This document shows, piece by piece, positions 13,587 to 61,298 of a stretch of DNA of 64,000 nt; positions within the stretch are counted from its first letter, which is position 1, and each line of letters begins with the position of its first letter. Location of the stretch: contig JACAFG010000002.1 in NCBI GenBank assembly GCA_019352195.1, positions 19,120 through 83,119 of the forward strand, read 5' to 3'. The notes below the pieces were generated by a model. The model saw nothing but the letters and a program-made list of their open reading frames with translations. It was not told the origin of the DNA and made no database searches. The position numbers and the translations under genes are program-made. The stretch comes from Candidatus Saccharimonadota bacterium (GTDB taxonomy: Bacteria > Patescibacteriota > Saccharimonadia > UBA4664).

Positions 13587-14021
13587 ATGGCAGACAACGA
13601 GAACTTGAAAGCCAAGCCGGATGCGTTTTGGCGTGAGAAACTAACACCCGAGCAATATCGGGTGATGCGCGAGCGGGGAACCGAGCGTCCTTATACCGAA
13701 ACTTATGCCGACAACACGTCAGCCGGCGTCTACAAGTGTGCTGCTTGTGGCAACGACTTATTTTCAAGTGACACTAAGTTTGAGAGTACTGCTCCGGGGC
13801 TAGCCGGCTGGCCGGCCTTTAGCGCCGAACTGAGTCAAGGAAAAGTTGAGCTCGTCGAAGATCGTTCTTTGGGTATGAGCCGCACCGAAATAACGTGTGG
13901 TCGGTGTGGTGCTCATTTGGGGCACCTGTTCACAGACGATCCCGCCTCGACCAATGGCATGCATTACTGCGTAAATTCGGTGGCGCTGGCGTTTGATCCT
14001 AAGGAGACCGGTAAGGCGTGA
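13587..14021 (+). CDS. msrB: peptide-methionine (R)-S-oxide reductase MsrB
   Basis: SelR fold with two CxxC zinc motifs (CAACGND..., CGRCGAHLGHLF). aaggagacgagtt RBS. Confidence 0.85.
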   Translation: MADNENLKAKPDAFWREKLTPEQYRVMRERGTERPYTETYADNTSAGVYKCAACGNDLFSSDTKFESTAPGLAGWPAFSAELSQGKVELVEDRSLGMSRTEITCGRCGAHLGHLFTDDPASTNGMHYCVNSVALAFDPKETGKA

Positions 14022-14329
14022 TGTATTCGGAGCTGGTTGAGGAAGCTCAGGCGGCTTATCCGCACATTGAAGCCGGCGAGATGTTTAGCATGGCGTGTTT
14101 GAAACTGGACGACAAAGTGCTGGGCGGCGATTGGCACGGCGATTTTGTGGTCAAATTAAGTGAGGATGGGGCTAAAAAAGCACTGGAAATTACCGGAGCG
14201 GTGCAATTTTCGCCCGCAACAGGGCACGTAATGAAGCAATGGATTGTGGTCCCGGCGGCCGTGAGCGATCGCTGGTTTAAGTTGCTCGAGCAAGCTGTCG
14301 AGTATCGGATGTCGCATGAATACAAGTAA
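14018..14329 (+). CDS. hypothetical protein, TfoX N-terminal-domain-like
   Basis: 103 aa. ATGA overlap with msrB. EMFSMACLKLDDKVLGG...VVKL pattern resembles the TfoX_N fold. Confidence 0.4.
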   Translation: MMYSELVEEAQAAYPHIEAGEMFSMACLKLDDKVLGGDWHGDFVVKLSEDGAKKALEITGAVQFSPATGHVMKQWIVVPAAVSDRWFKLLEQAVEYRMSHEYK

Positions 14330-15086
14330 ACCTTGGGCTTTAATTACGGGAGCATCAGGCGGTATTGGGCTTGAGCTCACTCGGCTGGAGGCGGCTGATG
14401 GTTATAATCTGTTGTTGGTCGCGCGTGATGGGGCCGGTTTATCCAAAGTAGCAGCTGATTTAGCGGCCCATGACCGCCAAATTGATGTACTGGCGGTGGA
14501 TTTGGGTTTGCCGGGTGCCGCGGCCAAGGTAGCCGCGTGGGTGGGTGAGCGTCCGGTGGAGCTGTTGATTAATAATGCTGGTTTTGCCACTCACGGGGCC
14601 GTAGCCGAGATGGATCAAGCTGAGCTAGCGAGCGAAATTGGGGTCAATGTAACTACGCTCACTGAATTGTCACGCTTGATGCTGCCGGGGATGTAGCTCC
14701 GAAAGCGGGGTAAAATTCTCAATTTGGCATCAACGGCCGGTTTTCTGCCGGGTCCAGTGATGGCGGTTTACTATGCTACGAAAGCCTACGTGTTGTCATT
14801 TTCAGTGGCGTTGGCGGATGAGGTTAAACCAGATGGTGTTACGGTAACGGTGTTGTGTCCCGGGCCAACAAGAACCGGCTTTGCGGCGCGTGCCCAGGTG
14901 GAATCGTCACGCTTATTTAGGGGGCATGTGATGGAGGCATCGGTGGTTGCCAAAGCCGGCTACGACGGGTTAAAAAACGGCAAAGTAATAGTGGTGCCGG
15001 GTATCGGCAACAAACTTAATACCTGGGGCATCCGGTTAGTGCCACGAGTGCTAGCGGCCAAAGTGGCGCGACGAGAGCAATCATGA
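14316..15086 (+). pseudogene. short-chain dehydrogenase/reductase (SDR) interrupted by a single in-frame TAG at 14694..14696
   Basis: ORFs 14316..14696 and 14724..15086 are in the same frame. Reading through gives ...[38 protein letters not shown], a canonical SDR core (TGASGGIG glycine loop, YxxxK). Confidence 0.6.
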
Positions 15087-15502
15087 AGGCCTGGATTGGG
15101 GTCGTGGCACGTAGTCATGTCGAGCAGGGAATTCGAGAAAAGATTGCCCAACTGGGGCACGGTACACGAGCGCCATTGGCGCGCCTCAGCCCAGGAGACT
15201 GGCTGATCTACTATTCGTCGCAGTCCGAATATCCCGATGGTGAGCCGGTGCAAGCCTTTACGGCGATCGGACGAGTGCCCGATGATGAAATTTATGAGCA
15301 GGTAACCGAAAGTGGTTTTCACCCGTTTCGACGTCGGGTTGAGTATGTGGAGGCGAAAGAGGCGCCGATTAAACCGTTGTTACCCTATCTGTCGTTTAGT
15401 CGCAACACGTCCAATTGGGGCATGGTGATGCGGCGGGGATTGGTGGAGATTACCATAGAGGATGTGAAGCTGATTGCTGAAGCCATGGGCGCGACAGTTT
15501 AA
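15083..15502 (+). CDS. EVE/PUA-like domain protein (putative modified-base reader)
   Basis: 139 aa. GDWLIYYSS...AIGRV core and C-terminal RRRVEYVEAKEAPIKPLLPYLSF resemble the EVE (PF01878) pattern. Confidence 0.4.
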   Translation: MKAWIGVVARSHVEQGIREKIAQLGHGTRAPLARLSPGDWLIYYSSQSEYPDGEPVQAFTAIGRVPDDEIYEQVTESGFHPFRRRVEYVEAKEAPIKPLLPYLSFSRNTSNWGMVMRRGLVEITIEDVKLIAEAMGATV

Positions 15503-15519
15503 CAATCGGAAGGCCCAAA

Positions 15520-15546
15520 AAACGAGCCATTATGGCTCGTTTTTTA
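15520..15546. terminator. intrinsic terminator (A-tract, hairpin, T-tract; potentially bidirectional)
   Basis: aaaaaacgagccat-tat-ggctcgttttttag. Confidence 0.7.
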
Positions 15547-15810
15547 GTTACCTGAAGGCTCAAATAATTGAGCACTCGGGTAGTGGCCTCATCGAGTCGC
15601 CTGAAGGCGGCCCAGTGAGGCTATCATCACTTTTCCCGGTGATGAACTGTCGGGTGGTGGGCCGGACTACTCGCCCATGAGGGCTAGCTCGCGCGAGGTG
15701 AAGAGGCCGTACCGACTGAGGTCGGTGTTATCTTGTGGTAGTTCTGCGGGGATCCCGATCGGATCGGGGTCGGTCTCTCCCCGGGGAAGCTCGAAGGCGA
15801 GCTCGCTGGA

Positions 15811-15845
15811 TTGACGCATGTGCCTGCACCGCATACACTGTATGC
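15811..15845 (+). promoter_or_regulatory. promoter (TTGACG, 17-nt spacer, TACACT) with an overlapping perfect palindrome operator for the vapBC-like operon; the transcript is predicted leaderless
   Basis: The -10 box lies 6 nt before the ATG. GCATACA-C-TGTATGC palindrome at 15831..15845 straddles the -10 box. Confidence 0.5.
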
Positions 15846-16097
15846 ATGACAAATATTCAATACACCATTCGTAATATTCCCCCCGCGTTGGATCAGGTGA
15901 TCCGTAAGCGCGCGCAGCAATCGGGCAAGTCGTTTAATAAGACGGTTGTCGATTTGTTGGTGCAACAGGCCTTTGGAACGAAGGAGGTGCCGGTTGATGA
16001 TAATTTTGATTGGTTATTCGGGGTTAATACACTTGATCCGTCGTTTGATGAAGCGATTGCGGAACAATCGAAGCCCGATCCAAAGATGTGGGCGTGA
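15846..16097 (+). CDS. type II antitoxin, VapB/ribbon-helix-helix-like (84 aa)
   Basis: Small acidic protein MTNIQYTIRNIPPALDQVIRKRAQQSGKSFNK... Overlaps the downstream PIN-domain gene by 10 nt. Confidence 0.6.
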   Translation: MTNIQYTIRNIPPALDQVIRKRAQQSGKSFNKTVVDLLVQQAFGTKEVPVDDNFDWLFGVNTLDPSFDEAIAEQSKPDPKMWA

Positions 16098-16483
16098 AAT
16101 ACGTTCTCGACACGAGTGCTTTCTCGGCGTTTAATCGGGGCGATGTGCGCTTGGAGCGGTATCTTAGGAGTGAACATGAGATTTTGGTGCCGCTGGTGGT
16201 AATAGCCGAGCTGCGGGCCGGGTTTGCGCTGGGGAGTCGGCGGGCGGAAAATGACCGAATTTTGGAACGGTTATTGAATTCGTCCAATGTAACGGTGGTG
16301 AGCTTAAACGACGAAACGGCTAACGTCTATGCCGATGTTTTTTTACGCCAACGCGAGGTAGGCCGGCCGGTGGGGGCGAATGATATGTGGATTGCGGCTT
16401 CCGCGATTGAGCGTGATTTACCTGTGCTGACGCTTGACCATGATTTTGATGGAATTGTCGGCCTGAAAGTAGTGGAATTGTGA
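16088..16483 (+). CDS. vapC: PIN-domain toxin VapC
   Basis: VLDTSA...D motif and ...ND.WIAA. 131 aa. GTG start overlapping the antitoxin stop. Confidence 0.7.
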   Translation: MGVKYVLDTSAFSAFNRGDVRLERYLRSEHEILVPLVVIAELRAGFALGSRRAENDRILERLLNSSNVTVVSLNDETANVYADVFLRQREVGRPVGANDMWIAASAIERDLPVLTLDHDFDGIVGLKVVEL

Positions 16484-17184
16484 GCGTGACGGCGGTTCAA
16501 GATGAGCTACGTGAGCAAGGCTCACCTCAAAAGGCCCTTGGTTCGGGCGTGTTCTTTAAAACTGGGCCAGGCCAATATGGTGAGGGCGACGTGTTTTTGG
16601 GGGTGACGGTGCCGGAGCAGCGGATTATCGCAAAACGCCATCTGGATTTGAGTGTGAATCAGGTAGAAGAGCTGCTGCAATCCCCGGAGCACGAATTTCG
16701 GATGATGGCGCTGCTCATTTGGACATATCAGTTTGCTAGAGGCGACCTTAGCCAACGTAAAGCAATTTATGACGCTTATCTGGAAAATACGCGCTGGATT
16801 AATAATTGGGATCTGGTCGATGCCAGTGCCGAAATTGTCGGCCAATACATTGAGACCCATGAACGCACGATATTGGACAAGCTGGCCAGGTCGGGCGATA
16901 TCTGGGAGCGGCGGATTGCCATTGTGGCGCCATATTGGTTGATCAAGCAGGGTCAACCTGAGGATACGCTACGGATTGCGGCTCTATTACTGCACGATAA
17001 GCATGATCTTATCCACAAAGCCACCGGCTGGATGCTGCGCGAAGTGGGCAAACGTTGTTCGCAGGCGGTAGAGGAGGGATTTTTACGTGAGCATTACCAC
17101 ACTATGCCGCGGACGATGCTGCGCTACGCCATTGAACGATTTGAGCCGGAACTGAAGCGGGCCTACATGACAGGCGCCGTATGA
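16480..17184 (+). CDS. DNA alkylation repair protein (AlkD/AlkC-like HEAT-repeat glycosylase family)
   Basis: FFKTGPGQYGEGDVFLGVTVPEQR signature of PF08713. 234 aa. ATGA overlap with vapC. Confidence 0.65.
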   Translation: MSVTAVQDELREQGSPQKALGSGVFFKTGPGQYGEGDVFLGVTVPEQRIIAKRHLDLSVNQVEELLQSPEHEFRMMALLIWTYQFARGDLSQRKAIYDAYLENTRWINNWDLVDASAEIVGQYIETHERTILDKLARSGDIWERRIAIVAPYWLIKQGQPEDTLRIAALLLHDKHDLIHKATGWMLREVGKRCSQAVEEGFLREHYHTMPRTMLRYAIERFEPELKRAYMTGAV

Positions 17185-17576
17185 GCATGCGTCCAGCGGC
17201 GTTTGCCATTATTGTGCGGGGCCGAAAAATATTGATGGTACGGCTCGGGTACTACTCTCATTTCGCCGGCCGATGGAATTTTCCAGGCGGCTTTGTTGAT
17301 TGGAGCGAATCAATGGCGCGAACGGCTATTCGTGAAGTGCGAGAGGAAACGGGGCTTGAGCTGATAATAGAGCGGTCGTTTTGGCGCGGTCATGAATCAG
17401 CTAGTCAGCGATCAGTGGAGATGTTCGTGGGACAAGCAGTCGGCAATCTGAAGCTGCAGGCCTCAGAGATCGATGAGGCGGCGTGGTTTGAAATTGATGA
17501 TGCCATTGCGCTAGATCTAGCGTATCGGTGTAAGGACCGCTTGATGGAGCTCAAAGCCGAACGGGAGACAGCATGA
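17181..17576 (+). CDS. NUDIX hydrolase
   Basis: Nudix box GGFVDWSESMARTAIREVREETGL. Confidence 0.75.
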   Translation: MSMRPAAFAIIVRGRKILMVRLGYYSHFAGRWNFPGGFVDWSESMARTAIREVREETGLELIIERSFWRGHESASQRSVEMFVGQAVGNLKLQASEIDEAAWFEIDDAIALDLAYRCKDRLMELKAERETA

Positions 17577-17908
17577 TAAACGTCGCTGAATATTGCTTGG
17601 AAAAGCTGGGGGCTGAAGAAACCTATCCGTTTGATGCCACTACTACCGTTATGAAGGTGCACGGGAAGATGTTTGCTCTCATGGCGGCGGTCGAAAATCC
17701 GCCGAGTATCAATCTTAAATGCGATCCCACGCGATCGATATTGCTGCGGCAGGAGTATCCCGAGATTGCGGCGGGGTATCACATGAATAAGGTACATTGG
17801 AATACCCTAGATCTCACGGGTAACTTGCCCGATGCACTGGTTCGTGAACTTATTGATCATTCGTACGATCTCGTGGCCAAGACGAAACCAGCCAAAAATC
17901 CGGAATAA
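17573..17908 (+). CDS. MmcQ/YjbR-family DNA-binding protein
   Basis: KMFALM...INLKCDP...GYHMNKVHWNTL...SYDLV matches the PF04237 pattern. Confidence 0.65.
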   Translation: MINVAEYCLEKLGAEETYPFDATTTVMKVHGKMFALMAAVENPPSINLKCDPTRSILLRQEYPEIAAGYHMNKVHWNTLDLTGNLPDALVRELIDHSYDLVAKTKPAKNPE

Positions 17909-50970: not shown

Positions 50971-53211
50971 ATGGCGACAAAACGCAAAACCAAACGAACT
51001 ACGAAGTCCCGAACTACTGCCTCGCGTGCGAAGTCGCGTTCACGCAAGAAAATGCCGTTGCTGTCGCCCGAAGCAAAAGGCGAAATTTTTGGCGTAGTGC
51101 TGGCGGTGCTCGCAGTACTCCTGATTTTTGCGGATTTTAATTTTGGTGGCACGCTCGTAATCGGCCTTTTCCACGACCTAAAAGTAGTCTTTGGTAATGC
51201 GGCTTTGGTGCTACCGATTATTTTTGCCGTTTTGGCTTGGCGGCTATTTCAGCCAGCCAAATACCAAGTCCGAGCTTGGCACTATTTGGCACTGGCCGTA
51301 TTCATGGCGGCCTTTTCGGGACTGTGGCAGCTCAGCGTAGATCCGGCTAATGGGATGGTGCTCGCGAAGGCGGGAGAGGGTGGGGGCATGCTGGGCTACA
51401 GTATCGCAAACATGATGCTGCCCGTGATTAATAAAGCTGCCTCAATAATTGTCTTATTAGCCCTAATGCTGATTTCGCTCATTGTGGCCTCGGGCATTAA
51501 GCTGTCCGAGCTTTTTGGCGGTTTGGGATCAATCTTTAAACGTGAACCCAAGGACGAAGTGTTAACGGTAAATGATGCGACAGCGATTGGCGTCGTACCG
51601 GAACTTAAGGTAAATGATAACTCTGGTGCACCTGTGCTGCCCATTCGCGGTACGATTGGTGGTGCGGCGGAGCCTATGCCCAAGCCGGTGATGAAAGAAG
51701 AGGCCAAGGAGGCCCTAACGACTGGCGTGGATGTGGACTGGAAGAAGCCGGAGATGACGCTGCTGAGCCAAGCCTCGAGCAAAGCTGACGCTGGCGATGT
51801 GAAGGCTAACGCTGCGATTATTAAGAGTACATTGGACAGCTTTAATATTGCGGTACAGATGGGCGAAGTTAACGTGGGTCCAACTGTTACTCAATATACC
51901 TTTACCCCGCCGAGCGGCGTAAAGTTGAACAAAATTACTACTCTAGATACCAACTTAGCGTTGAGTTTGGCGGCTCACCCTATTCGCATTGAGGCCCCTA
52001 TTCCGGGAAAATCTGCGGTGGGCGTCGAGATTCCGAACAAGAGTATTGCGACCGTTCGGCTGCGTAGTGTGCTTGAAACGCCCGAATGGAAAAAGGAAGA
52101 TGGCCCGCTGACGTTTGTTTTGGGTCGGGACGTAAGTGGTATTCCCATGTTTACCGATCTAGCTAAAATGCCGCACATGCTCATTGCCGGTGCGACCGGT
52201 TCGGGTAAATCAGCCATGATTAACTCGTTTCTCACGAGCTTGCTGTTTCGCAATTCGCCCAATGATTTGAAACTAATCTTGGTGGATCCGAAGCGCGTCG
52301 AACTTGGTTTGTATAACGGTATTCCGCATTTGCTGGCCGAAGTTATTAATGATCCCGAGAAGGCGATTTCAGCGCTCAAATGGGCAGTGGCGGAAATGGA
52401 GCGCCGGTATAAATTGTTGGCCGATGTTGGTAATCGCAACATTATTGAATACAACAAAGCTCATCCCGATGATCGCTTGCCCTACATTGTGGTGGTAATC
52501 GATGAGATGGCCGACCTTATGATTGTGGCGGCTAAAGACGTGGAAACCTTGATTGTGCGCTTGGCACAAATGGCGCGCGCCATTGGTATTCACTTGGTAC
52601 TCGCAACCCAGCGGCCGAGTGTGGACGTTATTACCGGTGTTATTAAGGCAAACGTACCGGCGCGCTTGGCGTTTAGTGTGGCGTCGCAGATTGACTCACG
52701 GACCATCTTGGATCAAATGGGCGCCGAAAAGCTTTTGGGTAAGGGCGATATGCTCTTTGCTAGCCCCGAAATGATGAAGCCGCGCCGTATTCAGGGCGCG
52801 TTCCTCGAAGAGAGCGAAGTAAAAGCGGTTACCGATTTCTTACGTGAACAAACGCCGACCGACTTTGCTTACAATGATGATGTCCTGGCTCAAAAAGTGA
52901 ATATTGGCGGCAGATCCAGTGGGGGAGGCGGTGGCGGTGACGGCGAAATTGATGATGATTTGTTTGCCGAAGCGGCCGATGCTGTGATTCGTGCCGGCAA
53001 GGCATCAACTTCAATGCTGCAGCGCCGGTTGCGAGTTGGTTACGCGCGGGCCGCGCGTCTGATTGACCTGCTTGAAGAACAAGGCGTTGTGGGTCCAGCA
53101 GACGGTGCCCGGCCGCGCGACGTGCTCGTTAGTAGTATCGACCAGGTGCGCGGTGCTGGCGGCCCCTCAAGCGTCGAAGAGATGCGCCCTGCCGAACCTT
53201 ACGATGACTAG
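50971..53211 (+). CDS. ftsK: DNA translocase FtsK
   Basis: N-terminal TM helices, motor domain with Walker A GATGSGKS, C-terminal gamma (wHTH) domain. 746 aa. Confidence 0.9.
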   Translation: MATKRKTKRTTKSRTTASRAKSRSRKKMPLLSPEAKGEIFGVVLAVLAVLLIFADFNFGGTLVIGLFHDLKVVFGNAALVLPIIFAVLAWRLFQPAKYQVRAWHYLALAVFMAAFSGLWQLSVDPANGMVLAKAGEGGGMLGYSIANMMLPVINKAASIIVLLALMLISLIVASGIKLSELFGGLGSIFKREPKDEVLTVNDATAIGVVPELKVNDNSGAPVLPIRGTIGGAAEPMPKPVMKEEAKEALTTGVDVDWKKPEMTLLSQASSKADAGDVKANAAIIKSTLDSFNIAVQMGEVNVGPTVTQYTFTPPSGVKLNKITTLDTNLALSLAAHPIRIEAPIPGKSAVGVEIPNKSIATVRLRSVLETPEWKKEDGPLTFVLGRDVSGIPMFTDLAKMPHMLIAGATGSGKSAMINSFLTSLLFRNSPNDLKLILVDPKRVELGLYNGIPHLLAEVINDPEKAISALKWAVAEMERRYKLLADVGNRNIIEYNKAHPDDRLPYIVVVIDEMADLMIVAAKDVETLIVRLAQMARAIGIHLVLATQRPSVDVITGVIKANVPARLAFSVASQIDSRTILDQMGAEKLLGKGDMLFASPEMMKPRRIQGAFLEESEVKAVTDFLREQTPTDFAYNDDVLAQKVNIGGRSSGGGGGGDGEIDDDLFAEAADAVIRAGKASTSMLQRRLRVGYARAARLIDLLEEQGVVGPADGARPRDVLVSSIDQVRGAGGPSSVEEMRPAEPYDD

Positions 53212-53269
53212 CCTTAGTTAATTGCGAGAGGACGGGATCCAAGCGGATCCCGGCCTTGTTGATCGCGGG

Positions 53270-54082
53270 CTAAATCTGATGCAAATCGGAAACGTTCATC
53301 CACCTGGGTTTGAGCAACGGATCAGATTTGTACAGCGTTGGATGGGTGGAATGCGCAGCGGGCGTAGGACGCGGATTGTTCACCATCACCAGTCGCCACA
53401 GCAACGGGACAATGTCCCAGACGGCGCTGTTAGTGCGCTGCCAACTCGGCCAGCGTTTGTAGACGGTATCAAGACCGGTAACCATGCCCGCGAGCTCCAT
53501 GGTTTGCAGACTGCCTCGACAGCTGACAAATGAGTATTCGGACCAGAAGGGCTGGGGCCACCGGTAACACCGAATAAGGAGGCTGAGGTGACCGACGCCG
53601 CCAGCAAATAACATACTGCTGCGCTTATTGAGTCGATCGCGCCACCATGGCTTAGGCGGAAAGCCGAGTGCTGGATCTAAGGCCGGAAACGTGGCCGGTT
53701 TGTCGTGCCAAGCCCGGTCGAAACACCCTGGCAACATTTCGGCTAGTTCCCAAACGGTGCCGCCGCGGCTCGAGCAGACATAGAGCGATGGACCCCGCAG
53801 CCTCACGCGCTCGATGAGCCCCCAGCGCGATAGACGTCCGAGAGCGGGCAGCAACGTGACGCGATCAAGACCAAGATCTCGAGCGAAAAACTCGGACTGG
53901 CCTAGCCTCACAATGGCGAGCAGCGCTGGCAAAACGTGATAGCTGCCAACGAGCGCCAAACTGGCTCGTTCGGCCAGGTAATGGGGAGTGTCCAGATCGT
54001 CAGGTATTAAGGGTTGAGGGTGCACTTGTACTCCTATCAGAGGGCAAACGGATAAAACAAGCTGGCACGTATTACAGCACAC
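53270..54082 (-). CDS. hypothetical Trp-rich protein (270 aa)
   Basis: Long ORF divergent from the rodZ-like gene. No motif recognised. Real start uncertain. Confidence 0.35.
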   Translation of the reverse strand: MCCNTCQLVLSVCPLIGVQVHPQPLIPDDLDTPHYLAERASLALVGSYHVLPALLAIVRLGQSEFFARDLGLDRVTLLPALGRLSRWGLIERVRLRGPSLYVCSSRGGTVWELAEMLPGCFDRAWHDKPATFPALDPALGFPPKPWWRDRLNKRSSMLFAGGVGHLSLLIRCYRWPQPFWSEYSFVSCRGSLQTMELAGMVTGLDTVYKRWPSWQRTNSAVWDIVPLLWRLVMVNNPRPTPAAHSTHPTLYKSDPLLKPRWMNVSDLHQI

Positions 54083-54098
54083 CCGCTACAATAGGTCC

Positions 54099-55061
54099 AT
54101 GTCTGATGAAGTTAAATTAGTTGGTAAGGTGGGACCGCAACTTAAAGCGAGGCGGCAGGCGCTGCGGTTGAGCTTGGCTCAAGTGGAACTTGATACCAAG
54201 ATTCGCGGTAAATTTCTCACAGCGCTCGAGAGCGGCAATTACGATAAGCTGCCCCACGACATATACTCGCGCGGATTTGTACAACAGTATGCGGGTTACT
54301 TAGGCCTAAATGGCTCTGAAGTAGCCACTGCCTATGTGGCTGAACGTGGTGGCCTCGAAGCGGGGGATACCAAACGCCCCACCCTGGAGCGTCAACGCAG
54401 ACTCGTCTTTACGGGGCCAATTTTGGCGGCCTTTGCGGCCATTGTGGTGGTTAGTGCGATTGCATCGTATTTGGTGTATCAATTTAGTGCCTTGGCAGCC
54501 CCGCCTCATTTGGTGGTTACGAGCCCGGCTGCCGACACCACGGTTACCGGATCGGTCATTGAGGTGGTAGGGCATACTACGCCTGGCGCCGACATAACCA
54601 TCAATAATTCGCCCATTTTGAGTGATACCGACGGCAGCTTTAGTGAAAAAGTGGCTTTAGGGGACGGGCTCAATACTATTCGGGTGAGTTCGAAGAGCAA
54701 GTTGGGCAAAAGCAGTACGGTAGTACGCAATGTTTTGGCGCATTTGCCTGAGGTTCAGGGAGCGACGGCGAGTGTACCGACGGCGCCGTTTAACGGCGTC
54801 GCGGCATCAATCAGTGTCAGCGCCACAACCTCCGTGGTCGTCGCGGTAGACGGCAAAGAGGCGTTTCGACAGACCGTTTTGCCGGGTTGGAGTCAGCTGT
54901 TCACGGGTGCCCAAAGCGTGGTTATAACTACTGGTAACGCTGGTGCGACCAACGTTGTTATCACCAACAGCGTGGTAGCGAACAAGAAATTTACTCCGCT
55001 TGGTGGGCAAGGAGAGATCCGACGCAATCAAGAGTTCGATAGTACTACGACTTTTCAATAA
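54099..55061 (+). CDS. RodZ-like cytoskeleton protein (XRE-type HTH, TM, C-terminal DUF4115-like domain)
   Basis: LGPQLKARRQALRLSLAQVELDTKIRGKFLTALESGNYDKLPHDIYSRGFVQQYAGYLGL is a RodZ N-terminal signature. TM ILAAFAAIVVVSAIASYLVY. Located next to ftsK. Confidence 0.55.
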   Translation: MSDEVKLVGKVGPQLKARRQALRLSLAQVELDTKIRGKFLTALESGNYDKLPHDIYSRGFVQQYAGYLGLNGSEVATAYVAERGGLEAGDTKRPTLERQRRLVFTGPILAAFAAIVVVSAIASYLVYQFSALAAPPHLVVTSPAADTTVTGSVIEVVGHTTPGADITINNSPILSDTDGSFSEKVALGDGLNTIRVSSKSKLGKSSTVVRNVLAHLPEVQGATASVPTAPFNGVAASISVSATTSVVVAVDGKEAFRQTVLPGWSQLFTGAQSVVITTGNAGATNVVITNSVVANKKFTPLGGQGEIRRNQEFDSTTTFQ

Positions 55062-55090
55062 TTTTGCTATACTAAGCCCGCAATGATCTG

Positions 55091-55495
55091 TTGAGTACCG
55101 AGACCGAGAGGCAAATGATGGTGATTAATTACTCGATTGATCCCAGTGACGCGGAGTATCGACAGCTGCGTTGGGGTATCTATGTGAACCACAAAGGCGG
55201 TCTGTATAACGTTGCCAAGGTAGTACGTGACATGACCAATGGACTCGACCAGGTGAAGGTCTATTACGACGCGGTCGTGCCAGATGTCTCCCAGCCCGGT
55301 CCGCACAGCTATGTACGAGAGTTTCGCGAGTTTTTGTTCGATTGGGTACATCGTGACGGCACTTTATGCGCGCGGATTGTCTCAATTAGCTACAATTGTC
55401 CTCATGATCATGCTGTCGCAGTACACCGATTTGCCTATGTTGGTCCGGTGTTTGTACCCAGCATGAAGCTGGTGGACCCTTGGGGCGGGCCGTAA
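55091..55495 (+). CDS. DUF1653-domain protein
   Basis: GIYVNHKGGLYNV...VKVYYDAV core resembles DUF1653 (YRHYKGGLY...VVY). Confidence 0.45.
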   Translation: MSTETERQMMVINYSIDPSDAEYRQLRWGIYVNHKGGLYNVAKVVRDMTNGLDQVKVYYDAVVPDVSQPGPHSYVREFREFLFDWVHRDGTLCARIVSISYNCPHDHAVAVHRFAYVGPVFVPSMKLVDPWGGP

Positions 55496-55593
55496 ATACG
55501 CCTCGCTCCTACCCCGGTTGGCGGCAGGTCTTCGGACTTGCTGCCAACTTTTGGATTATTAAGTGTTAAACTGAACTCGATAAGGAGGCTTTT

Positions 55594-56091
55594 ATGGCCA
55601 AAGATTTTTCATTCGATATTGTGAGTGATTTTGATCCAGCCGAAATGGCTAACGCGGTCGACCAGGCCCAGCGAGAACTGGGTACACGGTACGATTTTAA
55701 GGGCACGGCCGCTAAGCTTGAGTTTGGTGAGGGTAAGACCAGCGTCGAAATTGAAGGTGCGAGCCGTAACCAGCTGGACGCTATTTTGGACATGCTGCAA
55801 TCGAAGCTCATTAAGCGCGGTGTCTCGCTAAAGGTTCTCGACACGTCGAAAGATCCCGATCAGGGTGGTAAAGAAATGCGTTGGAGTGTTCCCTTTGTTA
55901 AGGGACTTGATCAAGATAAGGCCAAGCAAATTACTAAACTTATTCGCGACGAGTTTCCCAAGGCCAAAAGCCAAATTCAGGGCGACAGTGTGCGCGTAAG
56001 TTCGACCAGTAAAGATGATTTACAGGGCGTGATGAGTTTATTGCGCGCTAAGGATTTCGATTTCCCGGTGGAGTTTGAAAATTACCGCTAA
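55594..56091 (+). CDS. yajQ: YajQ-family (UPF0234) nucleotide/cyclic-di-GMP-binding protein
   Basis: MAKDFSFDIVSDFDPAEMANAVDQAQREL...RYDFKG signature. 165 aa. Confidence 0.7.
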   Translation: MAKDFSFDIVSDFDPAEMANAVDQAQRELGTRYDFKGTAAKLEFGEGKTSVEIEGASRNQLDAILDMLQSKLIKRGVSLKVLDTSKDPDQGGKEMRWSVPFVKGLDQDKAKQITKLIRDEFPKAKSQIQGDSVRVSSTSKDDLQGVMSLLRAKDFDFPVEFENYR

Positions 56092-56100
56092 GGAGGATTC

Positions 56101-56775
56101 TTGAAGTTACCCGATCTAATACTTGTTCGACATGGTGAAAGTCACGGGAATGTTATTAATGCGCGTTTACGGGGAGACGCATCGGAAGTGCCGCCGGCAG
56201 GTTTTCATGATACTCATAACAGTGCATGGGAGCTGACAGAGGCTGGTACACAGCAAGCAGTCCTAGCTGGTGAGTGGATCCGCTCCCACGCGAACGAGTC
56301 ACCTCATCTTGGCTTTGTTTCGGTATTTACTCGAACTTTGCAGACGGCCGAATGTTTGGCGCTCCCTGATACTCAGTGGCATCAGGAGCTGCTACTACGT
56401 GAACGTGAGGTATCAAACATCGCTCACCAGCCATCTGGTAAGCCCGACCCAGTAGGTGAACTCGATTATTTGTACCTGGCACCTTTAGGTGTCGATACTT
56501 TTGCTCAGCTGTCCGATCGGGTCCAGTTATTTATGACGAAACTCCGTTGCCTTCAGCTTGATCCGACCCGTCCGATCGTAATTGTGACCCACAGCAAAAC
56601 AATGTGGGCTTTCCGGTTCGTCTTGGAGAACATGACTCCGCAGCAATTTGTCGCGACGTTTCCGCCGCCTGATAAATCTCACGAGATCGGCTATGGCCAT
56701 ATTTTGCATTATTCTGGCAGTGACGAGCTTGGCTTGTCGTTTGAAAAGTTCGAACACGTTAGTGTCGGCCAATGA
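56101..56775 (+). CDS. histidine phosphatase family protein (phosphoglycerate-mutase-like)
   Basis: LILVRHGESHGN catalytic RHG motif. aggagg RBS. TTG start. Confidence 0.6.
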   Translation: MKLPDLILVRHGESHGNVINARLRGDASEVPPAGFHDTHNSAWELTEAGTQQAVLAGEWIRSHANESPHLGFVSVFTRTLQTAECLALPDTQWHQELLLREREVSNIAHQPSGKPDPVGELDYLYLAPLGVDTFAQLSDRVQLFMTKLRCLQLDPTRPIVIVTHSKTMWAFRFVLENMTPQQFVATFPPPDKSHEIGYGHILHYSGSDELGLSFEKFEHVSVGQ

Positions 56776-57377
56776 TTACGCTCGAAGAATCTAAACACAA
56801 TCAAGCCGAAATGCAGGCTCAGGGTCGGCGACTTATCAATACCACTCCTATCGTCAAGATATTCAGTCGATATGGGGATTACCGCCTAGGTGGTTCATAT
56901 CAACACGGAACTATGATTTTTGCCAAGCCTGATATTGACGGCTACATTGTGGTCGAAACAGTCGAGCTTGAAGCGGGAATGGCTTTGCTGGGCGAGCTCA
57001 TTCAGCAAGATAGCGTTCGACGTATCGCAATTGAGAAAGAGTCTCAGCGAGGAATTGGTCTGCAGGTGAAAGTTCCCTTTGAGGGTCGCATGTGGAATTT
57101 TGATGTTCACTTTGTTGTTCCGTCCGAACTAAAAGCTGTGGATTATCTAGGTCACGTGACATTTACGCAGTATCAAGCTGAAACGATGATGTTTCTGAAG
57201 GCGCAATTGTATGAACGGGGATTGTACCCGGGTTCCACAAAATTGCCCGGATCGTTTAGTTCATTTGATGTCTATAGCGCGGTTCTCGATGACAATGTCA
57301 CTTCGGTTGAAGAAATGATTGCGTGGGGTAAAGTTCGTGAGATGGCAGCTGATAAGTTCCGGCGGCAGAACTCTTAA
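56772..57377 (+). CDS. nucleotidyltransferase-fold (Pol-beta superfamily) protein, family unassigned
   Basis: GGSYQHGTMIFAKPDIDGYIV matches hG[GS]x9-13Dh[DE]h. ATGA overlap with the upstream gene. The stop abuts the helicase start. Confidence 0.45.
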   Translation: MITLEESKHNQAEMQAQGRRLINTTPIVKIFSRYGDYRLGGSYQHGTMIFAKPDIDGYIVVETVELEAGMALLGELIQQDSVRRIAIEKESQRGIGLQVKVPFEGRMWNFDVHFVVPSELKAVDYLGHVTFTQYQAETMMFLKAQLYERGLYPGSTKLPGSFSSFDVYSAVLDDNVTSVEEMIAWGKVREMAADKFRRQNS

Positions 57378-59231
57378 ATGGATCGCACCCAGCGACAACA
57401 TGAACTTGAACTCGCGCGTGAGCACTTAGCTGGAGTGGCCGAGCGAACACACGCGACGCTAAAACGGCGCGAGAGTGCACGGATGCGCGATCTGGAGGCA
57501 TATCAACTCATTGAGGGCGACACAGAGTATGAGGACCGCGAGCGGGCCAAGGTGGTGCGCCGATTGACGGAGCAAATTATTGATCAGCTGCAAAATCTCA
57601 CTGAGTCACCCTACTTTGCGCGCTGTGATTTGCGGTTCGACGATGAGCCGTTACGGCCGTACTACTTTGGCAAGTACGCCAATGCCGACGAAGCCATCTA
57701 TAGCTGGACATCGCCGCTGGCGACATTGCGGTTTGCCGAACCGGGCGACGTATCTTACCAAACTCCGCAGCTGGGGATCCGCGATGGCGTTTTGGAACGT
57801 AAGGATCAGTTTCTTATCGCCCAAAGCAAGCTGGTATTTATGGCCACCGAAGCGAGAGGGATGGAGCGACAGCTGATTCACCAGGAGCATCTAACCAACC
57901 GTAAAACCGGTTTTGTGCTGCCCGAAATTGTGGCGCAAATGGAGGCGGCGCAAGATAAGGTAATTCGTACGCATCATGTCGGGCCCTTGGTAATTAGCGG
58001 GCCGGCCGGATCGGGGAAAACCACCTTGGCATTGCACCGCATTGCGTACTTGTGCCAATCGACTGACCTTGCCCAAATTTTTAAACCAGCCAGTATTATC
58101 GTGTTTGTAAACGATTTCCTGACACAGGATTATTTCTCCCATTTGTTACCAGAACTCGGTATTAATGACGTCACCATTACGACCTTTCCGGTGTGGGCGA
58201 TTGCGCAGCTTGAACTGCGACAGTATTTTTACCGGTTACGTCCCGGTGCAACCGAGGCTGACCGCGACGAATATGAATGGGCTAAGCAGCGTGCTTTGGT
58301 TGAGGTTATGGCCGAATACGATGAGCGCCGGATACCAGAAATCCTCACGACAGCCTATGCGCCGTTTTTATCGCCGCGACAGCGCACACGGCTCGAGCAA
58401 GAACTTGATGACGGCGCGCTTGACCGTACTGATTTAACATTTTTGTTGAAGGCTAAGACATATCGTGATGACGGCCTAAAACGTAAATTAGAGCACCACA
58501 CTTTTTATCCCAAGGGCCGGGTTAAGACGCGCATTGAGTACAAACCGCTCACGTACTCGCTGATTTTGGTGGATGAATTTCAAAATTATTCCGCGGCGCA
58601 ACTTGAGCTGTTAGGCAGCACCGCTAGTCCGAGCACTGAAGCAGTTTTGTACGTGGGTGATATTGCTCAGCGTACCAACCTCGGAGCTATGACTGACTGG
58701 TCGGAAATTGGCGTAACTATGCCGCCCGAGCGTCTCATTCGGCTCGGTAAGGTGTATCGTAACCCCCGCCGGGTTTTGGAATATTTGCAGGAACTCGGAT
58801 ATGACGCTGCCATTCCCGATGGGGTAGAGCCGGGCGAGCGTGTAGGCGAGCACGATAATTTTGATACCAATCAAAACATCGCGTTTATTGCGGCGATGCC
58901 AAACATTGCGGGCACTATTGGCATCTTGGCGCGTGATGATGATGAACTTGAAGCGTACCGACAAGCCTTTGCTGGCCGTGATGAGATTAAGTGTCTCACC
59001 ATTCGCGAGGCACAGGGGGTGGAGTTTGATACGGTCTGCCTGGTAGGCCTGCGACCCTCAACATTTGCGCAAGCTGTCGGTGAGCCACATCTTATTGAGC
59101 AGCAGCGCCGGATTAATCGTGATTTGTTGTATGTGGCGTTAACGCGGCCGATTGTGGCTTTGCATATTTTTGCTCTTGGCATTGCGCGTGAGATCTTGCG
59201 CGCAGTAGTGGAGCGCGGCGCTACCGGGTAA
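57378..59231 (+). CDS. HelD-like UvrD-family helicase (helicase IV type) with an N-terminal coiled-coil/arm domain
   Basis: Walker [17 protein letters not shown], Walker B LILVDEFQN, motif VI VALTRPIVALHIF. The N-terminal roughly 200 aa precede the ATPase, with a HelD-like WTSPLATLRF element. Confidence 0.55.
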   Translation: MDRTQRQHELELAREHLAGVAERTHATLKRRESARMRDLEAYQLIEGDTEYEDRERAKVVRRLTEQIIDQLQNLTESPYFARCDLRFDDEPLRPYYFGKYANADEAIYSWTSPLATLRFAEPGDVSYQTPQLGIRDGVLERKDQFLIAQSKLVFMATEARGMERQLIHQEHLTNRKTGFVLPEIVAQMEAAQDKVIRTHHVGPLVISGPAGSGKTTLALHRIAYLCQSTDLAQIFKPASIIVFVNDFLTQDYFSHLLPELGINDVTITTFPVWAIAQLELRQYFYRLRPGATEADRDEYEWAKQRALVEVMAEYDERRIPEILTTAYAPFLSPRQRTRLEQELDDGALDRTDLTFLLKAKTYRDDGLKRKLEHHTFYPKGRVKTRIEYKPLTYSLILVDEFQNYSAAQLELLGSTASPSTEAVLYVGDIAQRTNLGAMTDWSEIGVTMPPERLIRLGKVYRNPRRVLEYLQELGYDAAIPDGVEPGERVGEHDNFDTNQNIAFIAAMPNIAGTIGILARDDDELEAYRQAFAGRDEIKCLTIREAQGVEFDTVCLVGLRPSTFAQAVGEPHLIEQQRRINRDLLYVALTRPIVALHIFALGIAREILRAVVERGATG

Positions 59232-59279
59232 TCTTTTAGTCAGCGCGATGTTGGCTCGATCGCAGTATAATAAGATGCA

Positions 59280-59480
59280 TTGGAGCAAGTGATGCTAGAA
59301 ATTCTACCAGTAGCAGTGGCGTTGATTGGTTTAATGTTTTGGGCGTGGATGCTGTGGGAGTTTGCCCACAGCGAAGCGGTGCCACCGAGCCAACGGTTTA
59401 TCTGGATCGTGGGATTTATTTTGTTTAGTGTCCCGGTAGCGCTTTATTACTACTTAACCATCTACCGAGAGCAGAACTAG
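59280..59480 (+). CDS. small membrane protein, PLDc_N-domain-like (66 aa)
   Basis: Two TM helices and a C-terminal ...YYYLTIYREQ motif typical of PF13396. Confidence 0.45.
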   Translation: MEQVMLEILPVAVALIGLMFWAWMLWEFAHSEAVPPSQRFIWIVGFILFSVPVALYYYLTIYREQN

Positions 59481-59606
59481 CAGTATCAAATCACCCTCCA
59501 GTTGACAGTACGGTTTTTGTTCACTAAGCTGTAAATATCGAACGTAAACCGAACAAATCGGTGACGGCCGACTCAGATTAGATGAATAAGATAGGGATCA
59601 GGTACA

Positions 59607-60686
59607 ATGGCTGTAGCAACAGTGGAGACAAACGTGGAAGACAAGACAGCGAAGCCGGCTAAAGCAGCCGCCGAAGATAAGAAAGTGCAATCTGAGCGAG
59701 CCGAGCGCCTTAAAGCGATCGATTTAGCGGTATCCCAGATCGAAAAGCAGTTTGGTAGCGGCTCAATTATGAAGTTGGGTGATAGCCATAAAATGGATGT
59801 CGCTACTATTCCAACCGGATCGCTTTCGCTCGATTTGGCACTCGGCGGCGGTATCCCTCAGGGTCGCATTGTCGAAATTTATGGGCCAGAGTCGAGCGGT
59901 AAAACTACGTTGGCGCTTCATGCCGTGGCCGAAGTCCAAAAGCGCGGTGGCGTGGCTGCTTTCGTAGACGCTGAGCACGCGCTGGATCCCGAATATGCCA
60001 AGCGAATCGGGGTAAGTCTCGATGACCTGTTGATTTCACAGCCTGATACAGGTGAGCAGGCGCTGGAAATCACCGAAACGCTCGTACGTTCAAGCGCGGT
60101 TGATATTGTGATCGTCGACTCGGTGGCCGCACTCGTGCCGCGTGCGGAAATTGATGGGGAAATGGGAGATTCACACATGGGTCTCCAGGCTCGCCTTATG
60201 AGTCAGGCACTGCGCAAACTAACGGGCGTGGTGTCAAAAAGCAACTGTACGGTCATCTTTATCAACCAGCTGCGGATGAAAATTGGTGTCATGTTTGGCA
60301 ACCCAGAAGTAACGGCTGGCGGCAACGCCCTCAAGTACTACGCGTCGGTTCGTATGGATATTCGTGGTACCGAGCAAATTAAAGATGGTGACGTCTCAAT
60401 TGGTAAGCACGTTAAAGTTAAGATTGTTAAAAACAAGATTGCGGCGCCGTTTAAGATTGCTGAGTTTGACCTCATGTTTAATGAAGGCATTTCTACTTCC
60501 GGTGACGTACTCGATTTGGCCGTAAAGTTTGCGCTCGTAGAAAAAGCGGGTGCATGGTACTCGTATAACGGCGATAAGATCGGTCAAGGTCGTGAGGCTG
60601 CCAAGCAGTATCTTAAAGATCACCAAGAGATTATTGCTACGCTTGATGCCAAAATTCGCGAACTGGCCAACCAAGAAGCTGCTTAA
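59607..60686 (+). CDS. recA: recombinase RecA with a roughly 28-aa Lys/Ala-rich N-terminal extension
   Basis: [12 protein letters not shown] Walker A, L2 loop. 359 aa. Confidence 0.95.
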
Positions 60687-60692
60687 GCTGCC

Positions 60693-61298
60693 ATGCCGGT
60701 AGTAACGACAATTACGCGGCAGAAAAAACGTGATACTCGCTATTCGATAAAGATTGATGGCGAGTATTCGTTCTCATTATCCGATCTCGATCTGAGTAAT
60801 AGTAGCCTGCGGGTCGGCACGCAACTTAGTGACGCAGAAGTGGTGGATTGGCAGCGCCGGTCGGGGGACAGTATGGCCTATGATCTGGCACTGCGATATA
60901 TCAGCATCAGGCGCCGGAGCACGGCTGAAATTGAGCGCTATCTGATACGCAAAGAATATGATGAGTCCGTCATTCGCGACATTATTTCGCGTCTCACTGA
61001 GATTGGATTGCTCGATGATGAGGACTTCGCGGCGGCTTGGATTAGAGACCGACAATTATTGCGTCCGCGCAGTGTGCAGGCGTTGAAATTTGAGCTAATG
61101 AGGTTGGGTTTGAGCCGTGACGTCATTGATTCCGCTCTGGCGAAAACTGGCGGTGATGAAATCGAAGTCGTCGCCAAACTTATTGAGCGTCGCCAGCGCC
61201 AATATCCCGAGCGAGAAAAACTCATGGCCTATCTAGCGCGACAGGGATTTCGCTACGACCAAATTAAATTGGCGTTCGAACGGATTAGTGAGCAGTAA
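60693..61298 (+). CDS. recX: RecA regulator RecX
   Basis: Three-helix repeat pattern (ALRYISIRRRSTAEIERYLIRKEY...). Located immediately after recA. Confidence 0.75.
   Translation: MPVVTTITRQKKRDTRYSIKIDGEYSFSLSDLDLSNSSLRVGTQLSDAEVVDWQRRSGDSMAYDLALRYISIRRRSTAEIERYLIRKEYDESVIRDIISRLTEIGLLDDEDFAAAWIRDRQLLRPRSVQALKFELMRLGLSRDVIDSALAKTGGDEIEVVAKLIERRQRQYPEREKLMAYLARQGFRYDQIKLAFERISEQ

What the first reader, a model, noticed from the sequence alone, without database searches (positions are those of the whole stretch)
55594..59231. Tightly coupled four-gene unit: YajQ nucleotide-binding protein, histidine phosphatase, small nucleotidyltransferase, HelD-like helicase
The four genes are linked by an RBS-only gap (yajQ to phosphatase), an ATGA overlap (phosphatase to NTase) and a stop-start abutment (NTase to helicase), implying co-translation. 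HelD-type helicases act on RNA polymerase. The upstream trio has nucleotide-handling potential (a binder, a phospho-histidine phosphatase and a Pol-beta-fold NTase of unassigned family). This arrangement is not a described operon to my knowledge and could be a nucleotide-signal-linked RNAP-recycling or defence-like module.
Basis: partly seen in the sequence, partly recalled or inferred. Interest (0 to 1): 0.6.

Follow-up and report, generated by a model that had tools for sequence, protein, structure and literature searches.

The report
Mosaic yajQ–helD operon in Saccharibacteria
The four tightly packed genes are real, but relatives show they are not a fixed module: a conserved yajQ–HelD-like–recA backbone has picked up two accessory genes, an orphan phosphatase and a small, fast-evolving nucleotidyltransferase.

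Summary
Four same-strand ORFs sit at 55594-59231, with a 9-nt GGAGG gap, an ATGA overlap and a TAA|ATG abutment. They encode YajQ, a branch-1 histidine phosphatase, a 201-aa Pol-beta-superfamily NTase with no Pfam or NCBIfam family, and a HelD-like SF1 ATPase. The genome is a Candidatus Saccharibacteria MAG.

The closest relative (helicase 72% identical) has yajQ overlapping helD directly, with neither middle gene. Three relatives have yajQ-NTase-recA with no helD. The phosphatase has no relative above 35% identity anywhere.

Tight junctions are the norm in this genome. About 46% of same-strand junctions are 15 nt or less, and a chain of unrelated genes at 13587-17908 overlaps in the same way.

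Three things remain mildly interesting:
- The mini-NTase sits immediately after yajQ in six genomes, although it has diverged to 32-55% identity.
- The yajQ-to-recA slot is a variable cargo site. It holds an HD_4-like hydrolase, MazEF or a UDG-like gene in relatives.
- The roughly 610-aa HelD-like family is widespread in Patescibacteria. It has a half-length clamp arm and SW[T]xP in place of the "absolutely conserved" DWR[A/S]P motif.

The parts
55516..55549 (+). Terminator-like hairpin (15-bp stem, 8 GC pairs, loop of 4, T-rich tail). It ends the upstream unit, so the string probably starts a new transcript at yajQ.
   Evidence: sequence
55594..56091 (+). yajQ (165 aa), YajQ/DUF520 family nucleotide-binding protein. 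AAGGAGG lies at 55582-55588. This is a conserved backbone gene.
   Evidence: Pfam DUF520 2e-58. NCBIfam YajQ equivalog 193 bits against a 146-bit cutoff. 70-89% identical in syntenic relatives.
56101..56775 (+). Branch-1 histidine phosphatase (224 aa, TTG start, GGAGG 4 nt upstream). RHG at residues 10-12 and the distal His in VTHS are present. It is an orphan accessory gene found only in this genome.
   Evidence: His_Phos_1 1e-12. phrog_12933 2.6e-14. Only 3 other homologues at E<=1e-5, the best 35% identical. No PDB sequence hit. None in the phage or viral collections.
56772..57377 (+). Mini Pol-beta-superfamily nucleotidyltransferase (201 aa), with an NTase core plus a helical lobe. It is an accessory gene that recurs right after yajQ in relatives.
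57378..59231 (+). HelD-like SF1 ATPase (617 aa). It has an N-terminal antiparallel coiled coil (residues 3-76, acidic tip), a beta domain carrying S109-W110-T-S-P, Walker A at 208-215, a helical insertion at about 270-392 (short clamp arm), DEFQN at 399-403 and a 2A domain. This is a backbone gene of the clade.
   Evidence: NCBIfam HelD_BACSU 9e-36, below its cutoff. B. subtilis HelD 6wvk_H 9e-25. AF2 pLDDT 86. The Foldseek top 7 are all HelD (1e-23 to 4e-20), against UvrD at 8e-13.
59280..59480 (+). 66-aa ORF with two hydrophobic stretches (my reading of the translation; no topology prediction was run) in the enlarged helD-recA spacer. It is specific to this genome and may or may not be expressed.
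   Evidence: No family hit. No tblastn hit in syntenic relatives. The helD-recA spacer is 375 nt here, against 60-114 nt in L004, L005 and L007.
59607..61298 (+). recA (59607-60686) and recX (60693-61298). They are the conserved downstream neighbours that define the slot.
   Evidence: Pfam labels

Best explanation
This is a lineage-specific mosaic operon, not a dedicated system. In this clade of Saccharibacteria the order ftsK - rodZ-like - yajQ - helD-like - recA - recX - ... - rpsF - ssb - rpsR - efp is conserved. The space just downstream of yajQ is a variable slot.

In the window genome two accessory genes occupy that slot: an orphan histidine phosphatase and a small Pol-beta-type NTase. 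They use the yajQ promoter and stop-start coupling for expression, as most genes in this compact genome do.

The four proteins most likely act independently:
- YajQ is a nucleotide- or RNA-binding regulator.
- The HelD-like protein is an ATP-driven RNA-polymerase recycling factor. It would insert a Gre-like coiled coil into the secondary channel and a shortened helical arm into the main channel.
- The NTase is an active nucleotidyl transferase on an unknown acceptor, either an RNA 3' end or a nucleotide.
- The phosphatase is an active phosphomonoesterase of unknown substrate.

What is shown: gene identities, junctions, presence and absence across relatives, and conserved catalytic residues. 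What is inferred: co-transcription, RNAP binding by the HelD-like protein, all substrates, and independent action.
For: Backbone without the insert:
- L004 (helD 72%, yajQ 89%, recA 90% identical) has yajQ overlapping helD by 17 nt.
- L007 has yajQ-52 nt-helD.
- L005/6 have yajQ-HD_4-like-helD.

NTase without helD:
- L031, L034 and L036 are yajQ-NTase-recA.
- L002/3 have yajQ, a frameshifted NTase, MazE/PemK, a UDG-like gene, then recA.

NTase elsewhere: L001, L030, L032 and L037.

Other points:
- The phosphatase is an orphan.
- Outside this clade, 19 Patescibacteria helD-like loci share no neighbour with the window.
- Tight junctions are generic here. The chain MsrB / TfoX_N / split SDR / EVE / RHH-PIN / AlkD-like / NUDIX / YjbR overlaps in the same way.
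- HelD assignment.
- NTase fold and motifs.
Against: - The NTase lies immediately after yajQ, often with a 4-nt overlap, in six genomes. It has diverged to 32-55% identity while the flanks stay at 70-90%. Linked and unlinked NTases interleave in the tree. This hints at more than passive synteny.
- All the slot cargo is nucleotide- or nucleic-acid-related: NTase, phosphatase, HD_4-like, UDG-like, MazF and HelD.
- No expression data exist.
- The sampling is small, about 12 informative loci, many on short contigs.
- The HelD-like protein lacks the D and R of the DWR motif, so RNAP recycling is inferred, not shown.
Confidence: 0.6

Rival explanations
1. YajQ and the mini-NTase are a functional pair. 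Either the NTase makes a nucleotide signal that YajQ binds (YajQ belongs to a family annotated as cyclic-di-GMP-binding), or YajQ (reported as an RNA binder) presents RNA 3' ends to the NTase. helD and the phosphatase would be bystanders or optional accessories.
For: - yajQ lies immediately upstream of the NTase in the window (with the phosphatase intervening), L008/L035, L003, L031, L034 and L036. The stop and start overlap in L008, L034 and L036.
- The association spans NTases only 32% identical, in two distant branches of the NTase tree.
- YajQ family annotation. YajQ as a c-di-GMP effector and RNA-interactome hit: PMC4199771 and PMC10201417 (titles and abstracts listed).
Against: - All linked cases lie in one syntenic clade, so shared ancestry with differential loss explains them.
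- yajQ is retained without the NTase in L004, L005 and L007.
- Four NTase relatives (32-50% identical) are not next to yajQ.
- No CD-NTase or SMODS model hits the protein.
- The fold match does not discriminate between tailing enzymes and signal synthases.
Confidence: 0.2
2. One reading: all four genes form one dedicated nucleotide-signal-linked RNAP-recycling or anti-phage defence module.
For: - The junctions are tight.
- All four proteins handle nucleotides or NTPs.
- The phosphatase matches a phage protein family, phrog_12933.
- The helicase has weak GajB-type PADLOC hits.
Against: - The four-gene combination was seen only in this genome.
- Every sub-combination occurs in relatives.
- The phosphatase is an orphan.
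- No defence-system partner such as GajA or a CBASS effector is present.
- The PADLOC hits are weaker than the HelD hits.
- Nothing was found in the phage or viral collections.
Confidence: 0.04
3. The HelD-like protein works with RecA/RecX in recombination or repair, like E. coli helicase IV or UvrD/PcrA acting on RecA filaments, rather than on RNA polymerase. The yajQ-helD-recA-recX string would then be a DNA-repair operon.
For: - helD directly precedes recA-recX in the window, L004, L005/6, L007 and L027.
- The D and R of the HelD-defining DWR motif are replaced.
- The score is below the NCBIfam HelD cutoffs.
Against: - Outside this clade the same family is never next to recA.
- The model has a Gre-like N-terminal coiled coil with an acidic tip and a helical arm in place of domain 1B. 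These are HelD hallmarks (PMC7749167).
- HelD structures beat UvrD/PcrA by 10 orders of magnitude in E-value.
- The NCBIfam helicase IV model scores only 6e-5.
Confidence: 0.15

Closest known systems
HelD, the RNA-polymerase recycling motor (class I B. subtilis, PDB 6WVK/6ZCA; class II M. smegmatis, 6YXU; class III Myxococcus)
   Same: - SF1 1A/2A ATPase core with Walker A GPAGSGKT and a DEFQN motif.
- An N-terminal antiparallel coiled coil followed by a beta domain with a conserved Trp.
- A helical insertion splitting domain 1A where helicases carry 1B, and no 2B domain.
- It is the best sequence and fold match.
   Different: - 617 aa, against 774 (B. subtilis) and 736 (M. smegmatis).
- The clamp-arm insertion is about 120 aa, against 247 aa (alignment; PMC7749167).
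- The motif is SW[T/I/V/A][S/A/T/V]P instead of DWR[A/S]P in all 25 Patescibacteria homologues examined.
- It scores below the NCBIfam HelD cutoffs.
- It occurs in Patescibacteria, a group not covered by the class I-III survey (PMC8655204).
Bilobal Pol-beta-superfamily NTases: non-canonical poly(A)/poly(U) polymerases (GLD-2, TUT7, Cid1), class I CCA-adding enzyme, OAS1, and cGAS/DncV-like CD-NTases
   Same: - The G-S ... DxD ... D catalytic signature.
- An NTase core followed by a helical lobe.
   Different: - It is only 201 aa, against 290-470 aa or more for these enzymes.
- The window protein has no HMM match to NTP_transf_2, PAP-associated or CD-NTase models. Only 7 of 76 family members touch NTP_transf_2 weakly.
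- The substrate is unknown.
- It has family-specific invariant W108 and conserved K143 and Y168.
YajQ (E. coli YajQ / Xanthomonas XC_3703 family)
   Same: Full-length match above the NCBIfam equivalog cutoff.
   Different: The context is different: here it heads an operon followed by helD-like/recA. The LysR-partner and phi6-related roles described in Proteobacteria (PMC4199771, PMC10747372, listed) have no visible counterpart here.
Branch-1 histidine phosphatases (dPGM / cobC / SixA / PhoE type)
   Same: RHG motif, downstream Arg, Glu and second His; Pfam His_Phos_1 above the gathering score.
   Different: No equivalog comes near its cutoff; the best is 20 bits against 305. There is no PDB relative by sequence. 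The closest homologue is 35% identical.

Membership tests
HelD (RNAP recycling motor) | SF1 ATPase core (Walker A, Walker B/DExx, 1A + 2A domains) | tested here: met
   GPAGSGKT at 208-215 and DEFQN at 399-403 are invariant in 25 homologues. UvrD-helicase, AAA_19 and UvrD_C Pfam hits.
HelD (RNAP recycling motor) | HelD-specific N-terminal domain with a long antiparallel alpha-helical secondary-channel arm | tested here: met
   The AF2 model has H3-43 and H50-76 with tip E46-G-D-T-E-Y-E-D53, pLDDT 84-93. Query residues 54-273 align to B. subtilis HelD 78-296. This rests on a predicted structure only.
HelD (RNAP recycling motor) | Absolutely conserved DWR motif, usually DWR[A/S]P (Trp cage) (PMC8655204) | tested here: not met
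   The window has S109-W110-T111-S112-P113. In 25 of 25 Patescibacteria homologues the first position is S, not D. The third is T, I, V or A, never R. W is kept in 25/25 and P in 23/25.
HelD (RNAP recycling motor) | Clamp-arm insertion in place of helicase domain 1B; no 2B domain | tested here: inconclusive
   A helical insertion is present at about 270-392 (H293-364), but it is only about half the length of the 247-aa B. subtilis arm. Whether it can open the clamp is unknown.
HelD (RNAP recycling motor) | NCBIfam HelD/HelR model above its curated cutoff | tested here: not met
   HelD_BACSU scores 123 bits against a 419-bit cutoff. HelD_MYCSM scores 71 against 1051. It is still the best-scoring family.
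HelD (RNAP recycling motor) | Binds RNAP and releases nucleic acids in an ATP-dependent way | not testable with these tools
   Needs biochemistry or cryo-EM.
Pol-beta-superfamily nucleotidyltransferase | hG[GS] x9-13 Dh[DE]h plus a third carboxylate on a later strand | tested here: met
   G41-S42 ... D54-I-D56 ... D111. Across 76 family members G41 and D56 are invariant, and S42, D54 and D111 are conserved in at least 90%.
Pol-beta-superfamily nucleotidyltransferase | alpha-beta-alpha-beta-alpha-beta NTase fold | tested here: met
CD-NTase / SMODS (CBASS signal synthase) | Match to CD-NTase HMMs and an adjacent effector gene | tested here: not met
MNT antitoxin of HEPN-MNT / MenT-type NTase toxins | Minimal NTase paired with a HEPN or cognate partner gene | tested here: not met
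Aminoglycoside/lincosamide nucleotidyltransferases (ANT, Lnu) | Sequence or fold closest to ANT or Lnu enzymes | tested here: not met
YajQ family | NCBIfam equivalog PRK05412 above its cutoff, full length | tested here: met
   193.1 bits against 146, residues 3-165 of 165.
YajQ family | Binds c-di-GMP or other nucleotides | not testable with these tools
   Needs a binding assay.
Histidine phosphatase superfamily, branch 1 | Pfam His_Phos_1 above the gathering score, with the RHG catalytic motif and a second His | tested here: met
   48.5 bits against 21.7. R10-H11-G12 and the His in V-T-H-S are read from the translation.
Gabija (GajA/GajB) or another known defence system | Complete gene set of the system | tested here: not met
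   Only GajB-type UvrD hits (4e-14), weaker than the HelD hits. There is no GajA, and the other three proteins have no significant PADLOC hit (the phosphatase has a chance-level Csx3 match, E 0.011).

The most novel reading that the evidence does not exclude
The region downstream of yajQ is a signalling cassette. The mini-NTase, a stripped-down relative of the cGAS/DncV/OAS-type bilobal enzymes, would synthesise a nucleotide messenger read by the adjacent YajQ. The slot would collect enzymes that make or destroy that messenger: the NTase, the histidine phosphatase, and the HD_4-like hydrolase in L005. Output would flow to transcription or repair through the HelD-like motor and RecA.
Probability: 0.07. 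Interest if true: 0.75.

Novelty: new variant of a known kind. Interest (0 to 1): 0.3.

Why it matters
As a four-gene system it does not matter much. It is an ordinary operon mosaic in a compact genome, and it shows that stop-start coupling in Patescibacteria is weak evidence of shared function.

Three by-products could be useful:
1. Patescibacteria carry a widespread, short HelD-like protein that breaks the motif said to be universal in HelD. This bears on how small an RNAP-recycling motor can be, and on transcription in reduced genomes.
2. A roughly 470-cluster family of 200-aa bilobal NTases with intact catalytic residues has no assigned function.
3. The NTase's repeated position right after yajQ gives a cheap, testable lead to the still unclear function of YajQ.

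Tried and rejected
- Sequence HMMs for the NTase (Pfam, NCBIfam, PADLOC, PHROGs) gave nothing. PDB phmmer and profile searches gave only E of about 0.04 to yeast PAP over the G-S/DxD stretch.
With A1 the single metagenome scan returned only one locus, a duplicate of L008.
It yielded only 21 loci, mostly non-Saccharibacteria. This was enough to show no conserved neighbours outside the clade, but it is not a census.
- A phage or viral origin for the insert found no support. There were no hits in IMG/VR or INPHARED for the phosphatase or the NTase, and only a PHROG family-level hit for the phosphatase.
- Composition gives weak evidence at best of foreign origin. GC3 is 0.48 and 0.45 for the two insert genes, against 0.52-0.56 for their neighbours.
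- No Rfam element lies in 53000-60000. No convincing sigma-70 promoter was found upstream of yajQ.
- Considered and rejected: Gabija or other PADLOC systems, HEPN-MNT, ANT-type resistance enzymes, and E. coli helicase IV identity (6e-5 against 9e-36 for HelD).


Full report
**What is there.**

The window comes from a Candidatus Saccharibacteria MAG. The third ORF is 100% identical to NCBI "hypothetical protein HJC99_01750".

Four + strand ORFs sit at the reported coordinates:
- 55594-56091, 165 aa
- 56101-56775, 224 aa, TTG start
- 56772-57377, 201 aa
- 57378-59231, 617 aa

- TAA, then GGAGG, then ATTC, then TTG.
- ATGA overlap.
- TAA followed directly by ATG.

A strong terminator-like hairpin (15-bp stem) at 55516-55549 closes the preceding gene. 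No comparable terminator follows the helicase. A single transcript starting before yajQ is therefore plausible, but this is inferred.

**Gene identities.**

*ORF1* is a full-length YajQ. It matches Pfam DUF520 at 2e-58 and the NCBIfam equivalog at 193 bits against a 146-bit cutoff.

*ORF2* is a branch-1 histidine phosphatase (His_Phos_1, 1e-12).
- It has RHG at residues 10-12 and the distal His.
- No equivalog comes near its cutoff.
- It has no PDB relative by sequence.
- It has a family-level hit to phrog_12933, of unknown function.

*ORF3* has no hit in Pfam, NCBIfam, PADLOC or PHROGs. An exhaustive profile search nevertheless finds 471 cluster representatives of about 190-205 aa.
- Across 76 of them, G41, D56 and W108 are invariant. 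S42, D54, D111, K143 and Y168 are conserved in at least 90%. This is the classical Pol-beta NTase signature.
- Seven members touch NTP_transf_2 weakly.
- An AF2 model reaches pLDDT 85. The caveat is that only one of five models was confident, from a 4-sequence alignment.
- It is thus a miniature bilobal NTase. The fold match does not separate RNA-tailing enzymes from nucleotide-signal synthases.

*ORF4* is HelD-like.
- Its best NCBIfam family is HelD_BACSU (9e-36, below the cutoff). Helicase IV scores only 6e-5.
- Its best PDB sequence match is B. subtilis HelD 6wvk_H (9e-25). The alignment includes the HelD-specific N-terminal domain.
- The AF2 model (pLDDT 86) shows an antiparallel coiled coil (3-43 and 50-76) with an acidic tip, a beta domain, a helical insertion splitting domain 1A, and a 2A domain.
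- The top seven Foldseek hits are all HelD (1e-23 to 4e-20). UvrD follows at 8e-13.

**Comparative test of the module idea.**

They are separated.

| Locus | Similarity to the window | Arrangement |
|---|---|---|
| L004 (1.09-Mb contig) | helicase 72%, YajQ 89%, RecA 90% | ftsK-rodZ-yajQ-helD-recA-recX; helD's TTG start overlaps the last 17 nt of yajQ; no phosphatase, no NTase |
| L007 | helicase 50% | yajQ-52 nt-helD-recA |
| L005/L006 | helicase 52% | yajQ, a 247-aa HD_4-like protein, helD |
| L031, L034, L036 | NTase 47%, 38%, 32% | yajQ-NTase-recA, no helD |
| L002/L003 | NTase 51% | yajQ, frameshifted NTase, MazE, PemK, UDG-like gene, recA |
| L008/L035 | NTase 55% | yajQ overlapping the NTase, then the contig ends |
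| L001, L030, L032/33, L037/38 | NTase 32-50% | NTase in unrelated contexts |

The phosphatase has only three other homologues at E<=1e-5 among 5.8 billion clusters. The best is 35% identical and comes from a eukaryotic transcriptome.

Outside this Saccharibacteria clade, 19 loci from other Patescibacteria carry the same helicase family (38-44% identity). None shares a neighbour with the window. Two other Saccharibacteria loci (L021, L028) also lack yajQ upstream.

The four-gene combination is therefore unique to this genome.

**Is tight spacing informative here?**

It is not. With rough ORF calls, 26 of 57 same-strand neighbour pairs in the window overlap or are 15 nt or less apart. At 13587-17908, eleven ORFs are chained mostly by overlaps:
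- MsrB
- TfoX_N
- a split short-chain dehydrogenase
- EVE
- an RHH antitoxin and a PIN toxin
- an AlkD-like DNA-alkylation repair protein
- NUDIX
- YjbR

Apart from the antitoxin-toxin pair and the split dehydrogenase, these are unrelated in function. Stop-start coupling is simply how this compact genome packs its genes.

**Best explanation.**

This is a mosaic operon.
- The backbone yajQ-helD-recA-recX belongs to a 12-kb syntenic block running from ftsK to efp.
- The position after yajQ is a variable slot.
- In this genome the slot acquired an orphan phosphatase and a member of the mini-NTase family.
- Compared with L004, this genome also carries three more inserts: an orphan 134-aa ORF before yajQ, a 66-aa hydrophobic ORF before recA, and an 887-nt spacer between ftsK and rodZ.
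- GC3 of the two insert genes is slightly low, 0.48 and 0.45 against 0.52-0.56. This is weak evidence.

I infer that the proteins act independently and that the HelD-like protein recycles RNAP as HelD does.

**What keeps it from being entirely dull.**

1. The NTase follows yajQ in six genomes, although the NTases are only 32-55% identical. The flanks stay at 70-90%. Linked and unlinked NTases interleave in an NJ tree. Possible causes are an old association with repeated loss and relocation, rapid evolution, or repeated replacement at one site. A functional YajQ-NTase link remains possible; I put it at about 0.2.
2. The slot cargo is consistently nucleotide- or nucleic-acid-related.
3. The HelD-like family is widespread in Patescibacteria at about 610 aa (970 hits at E<=1e-10).
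 - It has a clamp-arm insertion of about 120 aa, against 247 aa in B. subtilis.
 - It carries S-W-[T/I/V/A]-x-P where the literature reports an "absolutely conserved" DWR motif (PMC8655204). S and W are invariant in 25 of 25 homologues.
 - The class I-III survey does not mention Patescibacteria.
 - I did not find yajQ and helD discussed together.

**Comparison with known systems.**

- It works like HelD, but it fails two membership tests: the DWR motif and the NCBIfam cutoff. I therefore file it as a HelD-like variant, not a class I-III member.
- The NTase belongs to the Pol-beta superfamily (motifs and fold met). It is not a member of the CD-NTase, MNT or ANT families by any test I could run.
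- No known defence system is present.

**Verdict.**

- The interpretation as a dedicated module is not supported, although the gene calls are right.
- Novelty lies only in the variants: the short HelD-like class, the unassigned mini-NTase family, and the yajQ-adjacent variable slot.
- Interest is 0.3.

Noticed in passing
window 57378-59231; homologues P0006-P0124; loci L009-L029: A roughly 610-aa HelD-like family is widespread across Patescibacteria (Saccharibacteria, Magasanikbacteria, Paceibacterota, Uhrbacteria, Taylorbacteria, Moranbacteria). It has an invariant S-W in place of the D-W-R said to be absolutely conserved in HelD, and a clamp arm about half the usual length. It may be an undescribed fourth HelD class.
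   Followed up: partly
L005:7046-7789, L002:561-1849, L003:75-611: The slot between yajQ and recA carries different cargo in relatives. One has a 247-aa HD_4-like (RelA/SpoT-type HD) protein. Another has MazE/PemK plus a 214-aa UDG-superfamily protein, with a frameshifted copy of the mini-NTase.
   Followed up: partly
window 13587-17908: Eleven small + strand ORFs are chained mostly by stop-start overlaps, although most are functionally unrelated: MsrB, TfoX_N, EVE, an RHH-PIN toxin-antitoxin pair, an AlkD-like DNA-alkylation repair protein, NUDIX and YjbR. I used this as an internal control for tight spacing.
   Followed up: partly
window 14316-15086: A short-chain dehydrogenase (adh_short) is split into two ORFs. 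14316-14696 covers profile positions 2-123 and 14724-15086 covers positions 134-189. This is a likely frameshift, pseudogene or assembly error.
   Followed up: no
window 53212-54098: The ftsK-rodZ spacer is 887 nt here, against 52 nt in the closest relative L004. It holds only an unassigned 270-aa minus-strand ORF (GTG start; weak DUF6622 hit, 4e-4) and no Rfam element. It may be a degraded insertion.
   Followed up: partly
window 55091-55495 and 59280-59480: Two more genome-specific small ORFs flank the unit: a 134-aa orphan between rodZ and yajQ, and a 66-aa ORF with two hydrophobic stretches between helD and recA. Neither has a family hit or a counterpart in syntenic relatives.
   Followed up: partly
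L036:882-1770: recA in this relative appears interrupted. tblastn covers residues 1-265 and then 323-353, and the translation ends in XXX. This is probably an assembly gap.
   Followed up: no
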